64,000 bases of DNA from Escherichia coli O157:H7 (lineage in GTDB: Bacteria > Pseudomonadota > Gammaproteobacteria > Enterobacterales > Enterobacteriaceae): the NCBI RefSeq assembly GCF_013167455.1, contig NZ_CP038328.1. The stretch is one strand, 5' to 3'. The position numbers were made by a program. Shown piece after piece: positions 3,001 to 6,000 of this stretch; positions within the stretch are counted from its first letter, which is position 1; the number at the start of each line of letters is the position of its first letter.

Positions 3001-6000
3001 CGACAACCAGGCGCGTGTCTGACACGGACCAACGGTAGCAAGTCTTGCTCCAACATTTGGTCGCGGTGCGATGACCAACCACTGGGTCGACATCAAGAAC
3101 GCCAACCTCGTCGTGGTGATGGGCGGTAACGCCGCTGAAGCTCACCCGGTCGGGTTCCGCTGGGCGATGGAAGCCAAAATTCACAATGGCGCGAAGCTGA
3201 TTGTGATCGATCCTCGCTTTACGCGTACGGCTGCGGTGGCTGACTACTATGCCCCTATTCGTTCCGGTACTGACATTGCTTTCCTGTCAGGCGTATTGCT
3301 GTACCTGCTGAACAATGAAAAATTCAACCGCGAATACACTGAAGCCTATACCAACGCCAGCCTGATCGTGCGTGAGGATTACGGCTTTGAAGATGGCCTG
3401 TTCACCGGCTACGACGCGGAAAAACGCAAGTACGATAAATCCTCCTGGACTTATGAACTGGACGAAAACGGCTTCGCCAAACGCGATACCACGCTGCAAC
3501 ATCCGCGCTGCGTGTGGAACTTGCTGAAACAGCACGTTTCCCGCTACACGCCAGATGTGGTTGAAAACATCTGTGGTACGCCAAAAGACGCGTTCCTGAA
3601 AGTCTGCGAATACATCGCAGAAACCAGTGCTCACGATAAAACTGCCTCGTTCCTGTATGCCCTCGGCTGGACGCAACACTCCGTTGGTGCGCAAAACATT
3701 CGTACGATGGCGATGATCCAGCTGCTGCTCGGTAACATGGGGATGGCTGGCGGCGGCGTTAACGCCCTGCGCGGTCACTCCAATATTCAGGGGCTGACGG
3801 ACCTGGGGCTGCTGTCGCAGAGCCTGCCAGGTTACATGACGCTGCCAAGCGAGAAGCAGACCGATCTGCAAACCTACCTTACCGCCAACACGCCAAAACC
3901 GCTGCTGGAAGGCCAGGAAAACTACTGGGGCAACTACCCGAAATTCTTCGTCTCTATGATGAAGGCCTTCTTTGGTGATAAAGCGACGGCAGAAAATAGC
4001 TGGGGCTTTGACTGGTTGCCGAAGTGGGATAAAGGCTACGACGTCCTGCAATACTTCGAGATGATGAAAGAAGGCAAGGTCAATGGCTATATCTGCCAGG
4101 GCTTTAACCCTGTTGCCTCATTCCCGAACAAAAACAAAGTGATCAGTTGTCTGTCGAAACTGAAGTTCCTCGTCACCATCGACCCGCTGAACACTGAAAC
4201 CTCTAACTTCTGGCAGAACCACGGTGAGCTGAACGAAGTTGACTCGTCGAAGATCCAGACCGAAGTGTTCCGTCTGCCATCGACCTGCTTCGCAGAAGAG
4301 AACGGTTCAATCGTTAACTCAGGTCGCTGGTTGCAGTGGCACTGGAAAGGTGCGGACGCCCCGGGGATTGCGCTGACTGATGGCGAGATCCTCTCCGGTA
4401 TCTTCCTGCGCTTGCGCAAGATGTATGCCGAACAGGGTGGCGCGAACCCGGACCAGGTGCTGAACATGACCTGGAACTACGCCATTCCGCATGAGCCGAA
4501 GTCGGAAGAAGTAGCGATGGAGAGCAACGGTAAGGCGCTGGCCGATATTACCGATCCGGCAACCGGTGCGGTTATCGTCAAGAAAGGCCAACAACTTAGC
4601 TCGTTTGCCCAACTGCGCGATGACGGTACAACTTCCTGTGGTTGCTGGATTTTCGCCGGTAGCTGGACGCCGGAAGGCAACCAGATGGCACGCCGTGATA
4701 ACGCCGATCCGTCTGGCCTCGGTAACACGCTGGGTTGGGCATGGGCATGGCCGCTTAACCGCCGCATTCTGTATAACCGCGCCTCCGCAGATCCGCAGGG
4801 TAACCCGTGGGATCCGAAGCGTCAGTTGCTGAAATGGGACGGCACTAAGTGGACCGGCTGGGATATTCCGGACTACAGCGCAGCGCCTCCGGGTAGCGGC
4901 GTCGGGCCGTTTATCATGCAGCAGGAAGGCATGGGGCGTCTGTTTGCCCTCGATAAGATGGCGGAAGGTCCGTTCCCGGAACACTACGAGCCGTTTGAAA
5001 CGCCGCTGGGAACTAACCCGCTGCATCCAAACGTTATCTCGAACCCGGCTGCACGTATCTTTAAAGACGACGCCGAAGCATTGGGTAAAGCCGATAAGTT
5101 CCCGTATGTCGGAACCACCTATCGTCTGACCGAGCACTTCCACTACTGGACCAAACACGCGCTGTTGAACGCGATTTTGCAACCAGAGCAGTTTGTGGAA
5201 ATCGGGGAGTCGCTGGCGAATAAACTTGGCATTGCCCAGGGCGATACCGTGAAAGTCTCCTCCAACCGTGGCTATATCAAAGCCAAAGCGGTGGTGACCA
5301 AACGTATTCGCACGCTGAAAGCGAACGGCAAAGATATCGATACCATCGGTATTCCTATTCACTGGGGCTATGAAGGTGTTGCGAAAAAAGGCTTTATTGC
5401 CAATACGTTGACGCCATTCGTCGGTGATGCGAACACGCAGACGCCGGAGTTTAAGTCCTTCCTTGTGAATGTGGAAAAGGTGTAACGGAGACGACATATG
5501 GCTTATCAATCTCAAGATATCATTCGTCGTTCCGCGACTAACGGTCTGACCCCCGCGCCTCAGGCGCGGGACTTCCAGGAAGAAGTGGCGAAACTCATCG
5601 ACGTCACCACCTGTATCGGCTGTAAAGCCTGTCAGGTGGCGTGTTCAGAGTGGAACGACATTCGCGATACCGTCGGCAATAACATTGGGGTGTACGACAA
5701 CCCCAATGATTTAAGCGCCAAATCGTGGACGGTGATGCGCTTCTCGGAAGTGGAGCAGAACGACAAACTGGAATGGCTGATCCGCAAAGACGGCTGTATG
5801 CACTGTTCCGATCCAGGCTGTCTGAAAGCGTGCCCGGCGGAAGGTGCAATTATTCAGTATGCCAACGGTATCGTCGACTTCCAGTCCGAGCAGTGCATTG
5901 GCTGCGGTTATTGCATTGCGGGCTGTCCGTTCGACATTCCGCGCCTCAACCCGGAAGACAACCGCGTCTACAAATGTACGCTGTGCGTTGACCGCGTGGT

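What the first reader, a model, noticed from the sequence alone, without database searches (positions are those of the whole stretch)
3020..3080. Selenocysteine recoding site in fdoG
Seen in sequence: the two ORF-track pieces of fdoG are one frame joined by TGA at 3020-3022 in the context …ARV-U-HGPTVASLAPTFGRG. From established knowledge, FDH-O alpha is a selenoprotein, and the sequence just downstream (cacggaccaacggtagcaagtcttgctccaac) is where the SECIS hairpin is expected. Worth recording because an ORF caller splits the gene.
Basis: partly seen in the sequence, partly recalled or inferred. Interest (0 to 1): 0.3.

Follow-up and report, generated by a model that had tools for sequence, protein, structure and literature searches.

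The report
Selenocysteine UGA and SECIS in fdoG
The in-frame TGA at 3020-3022 is the well-known selenocysteine codon of the E. coli formate dehydrogenase-O large subunit gene fdoG, followed by its known RNA hairpin signal; it is real but ordinary and already annotated.

Summary
Observation and interpretation both hold. TGA at 3020-3022 lies in one reading frame that runs from ATG 2435 to TAA 5485, giving a 1016-residue protein with the context ARV-U-HGPTVASLAPTFGRG. The 59 bases 3017-3075 match Rfam SECIS_3 (RF01989) at 84.3 bits, above the curated cut-off of 63 (E 1.6e-19). The stop aligns with Sec196 of the solved E. coli FdnG structure 1KQF.

The window is 100% identical to E. coli O157:H7. 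The gene is the orthologue of K-12 fdoG b3894, in the fdhD / fdoG-fdoH-fdoI-fdhE arrangement.

In 80 distinct homologous sites from many bacterial groups, the apical helix is 97% paired and 4 of its 7 pairs show compensatory changes. The bases corresponding to fdhF U17 and U24 are invariant, U24 at a synonymous codon position. A plasmid homologue with Cys (TGT) at this position scores only 44.7 bits.

RefSeq already annotates one CDS across the TGA. This is an already known feature of low interest. Its practical value is that a naive ORF caller splits the gene, and that PGAP labels this fdoG "fdnG".

The parts
2435..5485 (+). fdoG coding sequence (formate dehydrogenase-O alpha subunit, 1016 aa including Sec196), read through the internal TGA
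   Evidence: Single frame with one internal stop. TIGR01553 scores 1573 bits against a cut-off of 814. Pfam finds Fe4S4, Molybdopterin and Molydop_binding domains. RefSeq has one CDS over the same span. It differs from K-12 fdoG b3894 by 37 nt and 3 aa.
3020..3022 (+). UGA codon 196, decoded as selenocysteine
   Evidence: In frame. Aligns with the Sec (X) position of FdnG 1KQF_A and of Desulfovibrio FdhA chains. TGA is present in all 80 distinct homologous sites collected, though the search pattern required it.
3017..3075 (+). SECIS element as delimited by Rfam SECIS_3 (RF01989)
   Evidence: 84.3 bits, gathering score 63, E 1.6e-19, full model 1-59. Identical in sequence to the K-12 fdnG SECIS.
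3023..3032 (+). 5' strand of the lower helix (pairs with 3057-3065)
   Evidence: Rfam consensus structure and ViennaRNA MFE, which uses a slightly different register. 83.5% of cells are paired across 80 sequences and no pair shows a compensatory change, so support is weak.
3034..3051 (+). Apical mini-helix GGUAGCAAGUCUUGCUCC, starting 11 nt after UGA. It has a bulged U at 3036 (U17) and the loop GUC at 3042-3044 (G23 = 3042, U24 = 3043). Inferred SelB-binding part.
   Evidence: Structure. Across 80 sequences 97.3% of cells are paired and 4 of 7 pairs change on both sides. U17 and U24 are invariant and G23 is at least 90% conserved. U24 is a third codon position fixed as T in 80/80. Positions match the fdhF element described in PMC8659212.
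3057..3065 (+). 3' strand of the lower helix
2444..2464 (+). Twin-arginine (Tat) export motif S-R-R-Q-F-F-K in the FdoG signal peptide
   Evidence: Read directly from the translation. Residues 1-33 are nearly identical to the FdnG 1KQF chain. The Tat function is inferred from established knowledge and was not tested.
5498..6400 (+). fdoH (beta, Fe-S subunit)
   Evidence: TIGR01582 scores 477.5 bits. RefSeq names it fdoH.
6397..7032 (+). fdoI (gamma, cytochrome b556 subunit)
   Evidence: NF007924 scores 453 bits, against 244 bits for the FdnI model. RefSeq names it fdoI.
7029..7958 (+). fdhE (formate dehydrogenase accessory protein)
   Evidence: NF002925 scores 604 bits. RefSeq names it fdhE.
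1408..2241 (-). fdhD (accessory sulfurtransferase), divergent from fdoG
   Evidence: TIGR00129 scores 340 bits. RefSeq names it fdhD.

Best explanation
The TGA at 3020-3022 is the selenocysteine codon (Sec196) of fdoG, the catalytic subunit of the E. coli membrane-bound formate dehydrogenase-O.

Shown here:
- One continuous reading frame runs across the TGA.
- The TGA aligns with the Sec position of solved homologues.
- A conserved, covarying hairpin of the known bacterial SECIS type follows it directly.

Inferred from established knowledge of the E. coli sel system:
- In the mRNA, the 18-nt apical stem-loop 3034-3051, placed 11 nt downstream of UGA, is bound by domain IV of the elongation factor SelB. 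SelB carries Sec-tRNA(Sec) and GTP.
- The tethered complex delivers Sec-tRNA(Sec) to the UGA in the ribosomal A site, in competition with release factor 2. Translation then continues to the TAA at 5483-5485.
- The inserted selenocysteine becomes a ligand of the molybdenum of the bis-MGD cofactor at the active site, as seen for Sec196 in FdnG.
- Ribosomes that lose the competition release a 195-residue fragment.
For: - Frame and context.
- Covariance model: Rfam SECIS_3 84.3 bits against gathering 63, E 1.6e-19. The same score and an identical sequence are found at K-12 fdnG.
- SelB determinants: UGA + 11 nt + mini-helix, with U17, G23 and U24 at the same distance from UGA as in fdhF, as described for the E. 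coli SECIS in PMC8659212.
- Sec position: aligns with Sec196 of FdnG 1KQF and with the Sec of Desulfovibrio FdhA chains.
- Comparative test on 80 distinct sites from Gamma-, Beta-, Alpha- and Deltaproteobacteria-like, Acidobacteriota and Actinomycetota contigs: the apical helix is 97.3% paired. Four of 7 pairs change on both sides (for example 21-33 GC/AU/CG and 24-30 AU/CG/GC). The covariation score is 0.230 against 0.120 in shuffles (0/500 reach it) and at most 0.094 when the partners are slid.
- Synonymous sites frozen at RNA-relevant positions: Thr ACG in 79/80 (G15), and T at the third position of the Ser/Gly/Ala codon in 80/80 (U24). Neighbouring four-fold sites vary freely.
- Identity island: fdoG and fdnG are 75.3% identical overall, but their longest identical run (71 nt) starts exactly at GTC-TGA.
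- Negative control: a Cys (TGT) homologue on plasmid pN96-1 scores 44.7 bits, below threshold, with broken pairs, and its apical segment does not form the hairpin.
- Conservation: found in 5425 of 5426 complete E. coli genomes and annotated by RefSeq as one CDS.
Against: - Nothing contradicts the explanation, but several steps were not shown here. No experiment on SelB binding, selenium incorporation or readthrough was done or found for fdoG in the searchable literature.
- The minimum free energy of 3017-3070 is unremarkable against shuffles (-14.6 kcal/mol, z = -0.38).
- The lower helix has two non-standard pairs in E. coli in Rfam's register (A3024/C3064 and A3028/G3060). ViennaRNA prefers another register, and no pair there shows compensatory change.
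- The comparative loci were collected with a pattern that fixes TGA and most of the 5' lower strand. They are also phylogenetically related, so the shuffle control overstates significance.
- selA, selB, selC and selD are not in the window (no tRNA-Sec), so the machinery is assumed from what is known of E. coli.
Confidence: 0.97

Rival explanations
1. The TGA is a genuine stop. fdoG would then be a pseudogene, or two separate genes (a 195-aa N-terminal fragment and an 804-aa product starting at ATG 3071).
For: A mechanical ORF list shows two ORFs, 2435..3022 and 3071..5485. RF2 termination at such sites does yield some truncated product in E. coli (PMC4513850 abstract).
Against: The 48 nt between the two ORFs (3023-3070) encode the most conserved peptide of the family, HGPTVASLAPTFGRGA, in frame. 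The TGA and the hairpin are conserved in 5425 of 5426 E. coli genomes and across phyla. A nonsense mutation would not be kept with frozen synonymous sites and compensatory pair changes. RefSeq annotates one CDS.
Confidence: 0.01
2. The SECIS-model match is only a by-product of conserved coding sequence (the HGPTVASLAPTFGRG peptide), not a selected RNA structure. UGA would then be read by some other route, such as near-cognate Trp or Cys tRNA.
For: The peptide downstream is highly conserved, so some of the covariance-model score comes from sequence alone: the Cys homologue still gets 44.7 bits. The MFE z-score is only -0.38.
Against: The Cys homologue encodes nearly the same peptide (HGPTVAALAPTFGRGAMT) but scores about 40 bits lower, with 8 broken pairs, and falls below gathering. 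Third-codon positions that matter only for the RNA are fixed (ACG 79/80; NNT 80/80), while other four-fold sites vary. Compensatory changes occur at paired wobble positions, and even through coupled amino-acid changes: Ala to Ser (GCC to TCC) together with Ala to Gly (GCC to GGC).
Confidence: 0.015
3. Sequencing or assembly error: the true codon is TGT/TGC (Cys), or there is a frameshift.
For: Cys-type homologues do exist, for example TGT in the plasmid pN96-1 fdnG-like gene.
Against: The 3401-nt stretch is 100% identical to many independent complete O157:H7 genomes, and the 181-nt core to K-12 as well. Both ORF pieces are in the same frame, so no frameshift is needed.
Confidence: 0.005

Closest known systems
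E. coli K-12 fdoG (b3894), Sec196 codon and its SECIS
   Same: Orthologue. The 3051-nt CDS differs at 37 nt and 3 aa. The 181 nt around the TGA are identical, and the gene order frvR-yiiG-fdhD / fdoGHI-fdhE is the same.
   Different: Only strain-level polymorphism (E495V, S571G, K689S relative to K-12). None lies in the recoding site.
E. coli fdnG SECIS (formate dehydrogenase-N; Rfam SECIS_3, RF01989; structure of FdnG 1KQF)
   Same: The 71 nt from GTC-TGA onward are identical. The SECIS_3 score is the same (84.3 bits), Sec is at residue 196, and the Tat signal and domain order match.
   Different: It is a paralogous gene (77% aa, 75% nt identity) in a different operon, fdnGHI. From established knowledge, fdnGHI is nitrate- and anaerobiosis-induced, whereas fdoGHI is expressed aerobically and constitutively.
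E. coli fdhF SECIS (formate dehydrogenase-H; Rfam SECIS_2, RF01988), the experimentally dissected prototype
   Same: UGA followed by CACGG.CC. The mini-helix starts 11 nt after UGA with GGU (bulged U17), and G23 and U24 are in the loop at identical positions.
   Different: The apical stem sequence differs, and the predicted loop is GUC closed by an A-U pair, against GGUC in fdhF. The lower helix is different. The SECIS_2 model gives only 28.1 bits here, and SECIS_3 gives 35.8 bits on fdhF. The host protein is cytoplasmic, 715 aa, with Sec140.
Cys-type FdnG-like formate dehydrogenases (e.g. plasmid pN96-1 WP_000395613.1)
   Same: Same protein family and operon layout, with 68% aa identity and the same peptide around the active site.
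   Different: TGT (Cys) replaces TGA, the hairpin is degraded, and SECIS_3 scores 44.7 bits, below gathering.

Membership tests
Bacterial SECIS element (Rfam SECIS_3, RF01989) | Covariance-model score at or above the curated gathering score | tested here: met
   84.3 bits against 63, E 1.6e-19, full-length match 1-59 at 3017-3075.
Bacterial SECIS element (Rfam SECIS_3, RF01989) | Hairpin lies immediately 3' of an in-frame UGA inside a coding sequence | tested here: met
   UGA is at 3020-3022 and the hairpin at 3023-3065, in the frame of 2435-5485.
Bacterial SECIS element (Rfam SECIS_3, RF01989) | Apical mini-helix 11 nt downstream of UGA, with a bulged U17 and G23/U24 in the loop (SelB-binding determinants defined on fdhF) | tested here: met
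   3034-3051 starts 11 nt after UGA. U17 = 3036, G23 = 3042, U24 = 3043. The definition is taken from PMC8659212. In 80 homologous sites U17 and U24 are invariant and G23 is at least 90% conserved.
Bacterial SECIS element (Rfam SECIS_3, RF01989) | Base pairing maintained by compensatory change across homologues | tested here: met
   Apical helix: 97.3% paired, 4 of 7 pairs change on both sides, score 0.230 against 0.120 in shuffles and at most 0.094 when slid. The lower helix shows no compensatory change, so it is inconclusive.
Bacterial SECIS element (Rfam SECIS_3, RF01989) | Binds SelB and directs Sec insertion in vivo | not testable with these tools
   Needs a gel shift, 75Se labelling or a reporter assay. 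No fdoG-specific experiment turned up in the searchable papers.
Formate dehydrogenase-O alpha subunit FdoG (Sec-containing FdnG/FdoG family, TIGR01553) | Family HMM above the curated cut-off, with the Fe4S4, molybdopterin and MGD-binding domains | tested here: met
   TIGR01553 scores 1573.1 bits against 814.2 over residues 2-1015. PF04879, PF00384 and PF01568 are all above threshold.
Formate dehydrogenase-O alpha subunit FdoG (Sec-containing FdnG/FdoG family, TIGR01553) | UGA aligned with the catalytic Sec of solved family members | tested here: met
   Position 196 aligns with X196 of 1kqf_A and with the X of 6sdr_A and 6sdv_A in the motif QAR(V/I)-U-H(G/S)PTV.
Formate dehydrogenase-O alpha subunit FdoG (Sec-containing FdnG/FdoG family, TIGR01553) | fdo rather than fdn locus: divergent fdhD upstream, fdoH-fdoI-fdhE downstream, orthology to b3894 | tested here: met
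   The RefSeq label 'fdnG' on this gene is a family-level name, not a locus assignment.
Formate dehydrogenase-O alpha subunit FdoG (Sec-containing FdnG/FdoG family, TIGR01553) | Host genome encodes selA, selB, selC and selD | not tested
   None of these genes lies in the 64-kb window, and no tRNA-Sec was found. Their presence in E. coli O157:H7 is assumed from established knowledge.

The most novel reading that the evidence does not exclude
The nucleotide conservation goes well beyond the roughly 17-nt SelB-binding mini-helix. The two paralogues fdoG and fdnG share a perfect 71-nt run, and the same 59-mer is identical in 20 of the fetched loci, from at least eight Enterobacterales genera. This could reflect an extra constraint that has not been described, for example on the lower helix and 3' flank for timing against RF2 or for ribosome unwinding. 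It could also reflect recurrent gene conversion between the two paralogues confined to the recoding site. The evidence here does not separate these from plain purifying selection by a single shared SelB.
Probability: 0.12. Interest if true: 0.3.

Novelty: already known. Interest (0 to 1): 0.08.

Why it matters
The value is for annotation only. A naive ORF caller splits fdoG into a 195-aa and an 804-aa piece at this site, and recognising the UGA and SECIS restores a single 1016-aa selenoprotein. The automated RefSeq name "fdnG" for this gene should also read fdoG. FDH-O is one of the three E. coli selenoproteins (from established knowledge), so the site is a useful positive control for recoding-aware gene callers. 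It opens no new biological question.

Tried and rejected
The MFE structure reproduces the hairpin, but its energy is no better than shuffled sequences (z = -0.38). It was therefore dropped as evidence in favour of the covariance model and covariation.
- fdhF-type consensus (SECIS_2). It gives only 28.1 bits against gathering 70. The element is of the fdnG type (SECIS_3), not the fdhF type, although the SelB determinants coincide.
- Lower-helix covariation. No pair changes on both sides, and the Rfam and ViennaRNA registers differ in E. coli. The lower helix is left as weakly supported.
- RF02778 FdoG-1 5' UTR thermometer at 2266-2464. It is sub-threshold (32 bits against 50), and only the Shine-Dalgarno and first-codon segment aligns. 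It is not accepted as a member.
- Failed or misdirected calls:
  - the wrong coordinates were used in a differently-rotated K-12 record.
  - script errors.
- Literature searches for fdoG-specific SECIS experiments. These returned only general reviews. The primary papers of the 1990s on fdo and on fdnG/fdhF hairpins are not in the searchable library, so those points are marked as established knowledge.
- One of the 121 pattern matches (L108) was a chance hit outside an FDH context and was excluded.

Full report
**Observation.** The bases at window 3020-3022 are TGA. The mechanical ORF list shows 2435..3022 (195 aa) and 3071..5485 (804 aa), both in the frame of position 2435. Translating 2435-5485 in that frame gives 1016 codons plus the terminal TAA, with a single internal stop at codon 196. 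No frameshift is involved. The 48 nt between the two mechanical ORFs encode part of the most conserved stretch of the protein.

**What the gene is.**
- The 3401 nt around the gene are 100% identical to many complete E. coli O157:H7 genomes. A copy covering at least 80% of this stretch is present in 5425 of 5426 complete E. coli genomes.
- RefSeq annotates one 3051-nt CDS across the TGA. Its neighbours are fdhD (divergent), fdoH, fdoI and fdhE.
- In the curated K-12 record the same arrangement (frvR-yiiG-fdhD / fdoG-fdoH-fdoI-fdhE) carries the name fdoG, b3894. The window's gene differs from it by 37 nt and 3 aa.
- The product scores 1573 bits on TIGR01553, cut-off 814. The downstream genes match the FDH beta subunit, the FDH-O-type cytochrome b556 gamma subunit (453 bits against 244 for the FdnI model) and FdhE.
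- Pfam finds the Fe4S4, molybdopterin and MGD-binding domains.
- The N-terminus carries the twin-arginine motif SRRQFFK.
- PGAP's label "fdnG / formate dehydrogenase-N subunit alpha" on this CDS is a family-level name and is misleading for this locus.

**The Sec position.** A sequence search of the Protein Data Bank, with X at position 196, aligns it with X196 of E. coli FdnG (1KQF; 616.6 bits over residues 1-323). It also aligns with the Sec position of the Desulfovibrio FdhA chains described as "selenocysteine-containing", in the shared motif QAR(V/I)-U-H(G/S)PTV. That Sec196 ligates the molybdenum in FdnG is established knowledge and was not tested here.

**The hairpin.**
- Rfam's SECIS_3 model (RF01989) matches 3017-3075 at 84.3 bits (gathering 63, E 1.6e-19, full length). 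The fdhF-type model SECIS_2 gives 28.1 bits.
- ViennaRNA predicts the same apical hairpin, but the energy (-14.6 kcal/mol) is not better than that of shuffles (z = -0.38). Thermodynamics alone does not support the element.
- Counting from the U of UGA as 1, the apical mini-helix GGUAGCAAGUCUUGCUCC (3034-3051) begins at nt 15, that is 11 nt after UGA. It has a bulged U17 (3036), and G23 and U24 (3042, 3043) in the loop. In fdhF the same three bases sit at the same positions.
- A review of the E. coli system lists these as the SelB-binding determinants: an upper stem-loop of 17 nt, 11 nt from UGA, with U17, G23 and U24 (PMC8659212).

- 120 of the 121 matches lie in the same protein context, and they give 80 distinct 59-mers including the window. 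They come from Enterobacterales, Pseudomonas, Burkholderiales, Rhizobiales, Rhodobacterales, Desulfovibrio-like, Acidobacteriota and an Actinomycetota MAG.
- On Rfam's structure the apical helix is paired in 97.3% of cells. Four of its 7 pairs change on both sides: 21-33 GC/AU/CG/GU, 22-32 GC/UG, 24-30 AU/CG/GC, and 18-35.
- The covariation score is 0.230, against 0.120 in shuffles (0 of 500 reach it) and at most 0.094 when the 3' partners are slid by 1-3 columns.
- The lower helix is paired in 83.5% of cells and shows no compensatory change. In E. coli two of its pairs are non-standard in Rfam's register, and ViennaRNA uses another register. This agrees with the reported secondary role of the lower stem (PMC8659212).
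- Caveats: the pattern fixed TGA and much of the 5' lower strand, and the sequences are related by descent, so the shuffle control is generous.

**Codon-level evidence that the RNA, and not only the peptide, is constrained**.
- The Thr codon whose third base is G15, the first base of the mini-helix, is ACG in 79 of 80 sequences.
- The Ser/Gly/Ala codon whose third base is U24 ends in T in 80 of 80.
- Four-fold sites just outside the apical helix vary freely. For example, Gly at cols 10-12 is GGA 23, GGC 46, GGT 10, GGG 1.
- Some compensatory changes pass through coupled amino-acid changes: VAS-L-A becomes VSS-L-G, that is GCC to TCC together with GCC to GGC.
- Within E. coli, fdoG and its paralogue fdnG are 75.3% identical in nucleotides overall. 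Their longest perfectly identical run is 71 nt and starts at GTC-TGA; the next longest is 36 nt.

**Negative control.** A plasmid-borne fdnGHI-like operon (pN96-1, flanked by IS elements) encodes Cys (TGT) at this position, followed by almost the same peptide, HGPTVAALAPTFGRGAMT. SECIS_3 gives it 44.7 bits, below gathering, with eight non-standard pairs. Its apical segment does not fold into the hairpin. About 40 bits of the window's score are therefore specific to the RNA element rather than to the coding sequence.

**Mechanism.** Shown here: a single frame, the Sec-aligned UGA, and a conserved covarying SECIS with the SelB determinants in place. Inferred from the established E. coli system (outlined in PMC8124441, and PMC4513850): SelB·GTP·Sec-tRNA(Sec) binds the apical stem-loop and decodes the UGA in competition with RF2. 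Recoding efficiency was reported as 30-40% in vivo for fdhF constructs, and lost competitions give a truncated product. The sel genes and tRNA-Sec are not in the window.

**Rivals.** Three alternatives were considered: a true stop or pseudogene, a by-product of coding conservation, and a sequencing error. Each is contradicted by the conservation, the frozen synonymous sites, the compensatory changes, the Cys control and the identity to independent genomes. Together they get about 3%.

**Verdict.** The feature is textbook, already annotated in RefSeq and represented in Rfam. Interest is low. Its practical value is as a gene-calling correction, and as a note that the automated gene name "fdnG" should read fdoG.

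Noticed in passing
window 2435-5485: RefSeq/PGAP records name this CDS 'fdnG, formate dehydrogenase-N subunit alpha' although its neighbours are named fdoH and fdoI and it is the orthologue of K-12 fdoG b3894. The name comes from the family model TIGR01553.
   Followed up: yes
window 3017-3087; L003 1484-1554: fdoG and the paralogue fdnG are 75.3% identical overall but share a perfect 71-nt run that starts at GTC-TGA (next longest run 36 nt). The same 59-mer is identical in 20 of the fetched loci, from at least eight Enterobacterales genera, and in both paralogues of several genomes. Whether this is selection by a shared SelB or gene conversion was not resolved.
   Followed up: partly
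L005 3449-8045 (plasmid pN96-1, NZ_JBXULY010000002.1): An E. coli plasmid carries a Cys-type (TGT) fdnG-fdxH-fdnI operon flanked by IS3, IS21 and IS66 remnants, so it appears to be a mobile selenium-independent formate dehydrogenase. Its former SECIS region scores 44.7 bits, below threshold.
   Followed up: partly
window 2266-2464: A sub-threshold match to Rfam RF02778 'FdoG-1 5' UTR thermometer' (32 bits, gathering 50) covers the fdhD-fdoG intergenic region. Only the last ~60 nt (Shine-Dalgarno and the first fdoG codons) align with confidence, so membership is not supported.
   Followed up: partly
window 8161-8243: Adjacent sub-threshold matches to ES036 (CssrF) on the minus strand and naRNA4 (CssrE) on the plus strand lie downstream of fdhE. 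They look like a REP-type extragenic palindrome pair, and similar hits occur downstream of fdnI in K-12.
   Followed up: no
window 53435-53629 (-): A tRNA-Ala(UGC) and tRNA-Ile(GAU) pair, typical of an rRNA operon spacer. No tRNA-Sec (selC) is present anywhere in the window.
   Followed up: no
L029 and L061 (Desulfovibrio-like and Mailhella MAGs): These two hits have a different apical sequence (GUACCGGCUCUGGCAGAG) with C instead of G at the G23-equivalent column. They probably use a differently registered SECIS than the SECIS_3 consensus.
   Followed up: no
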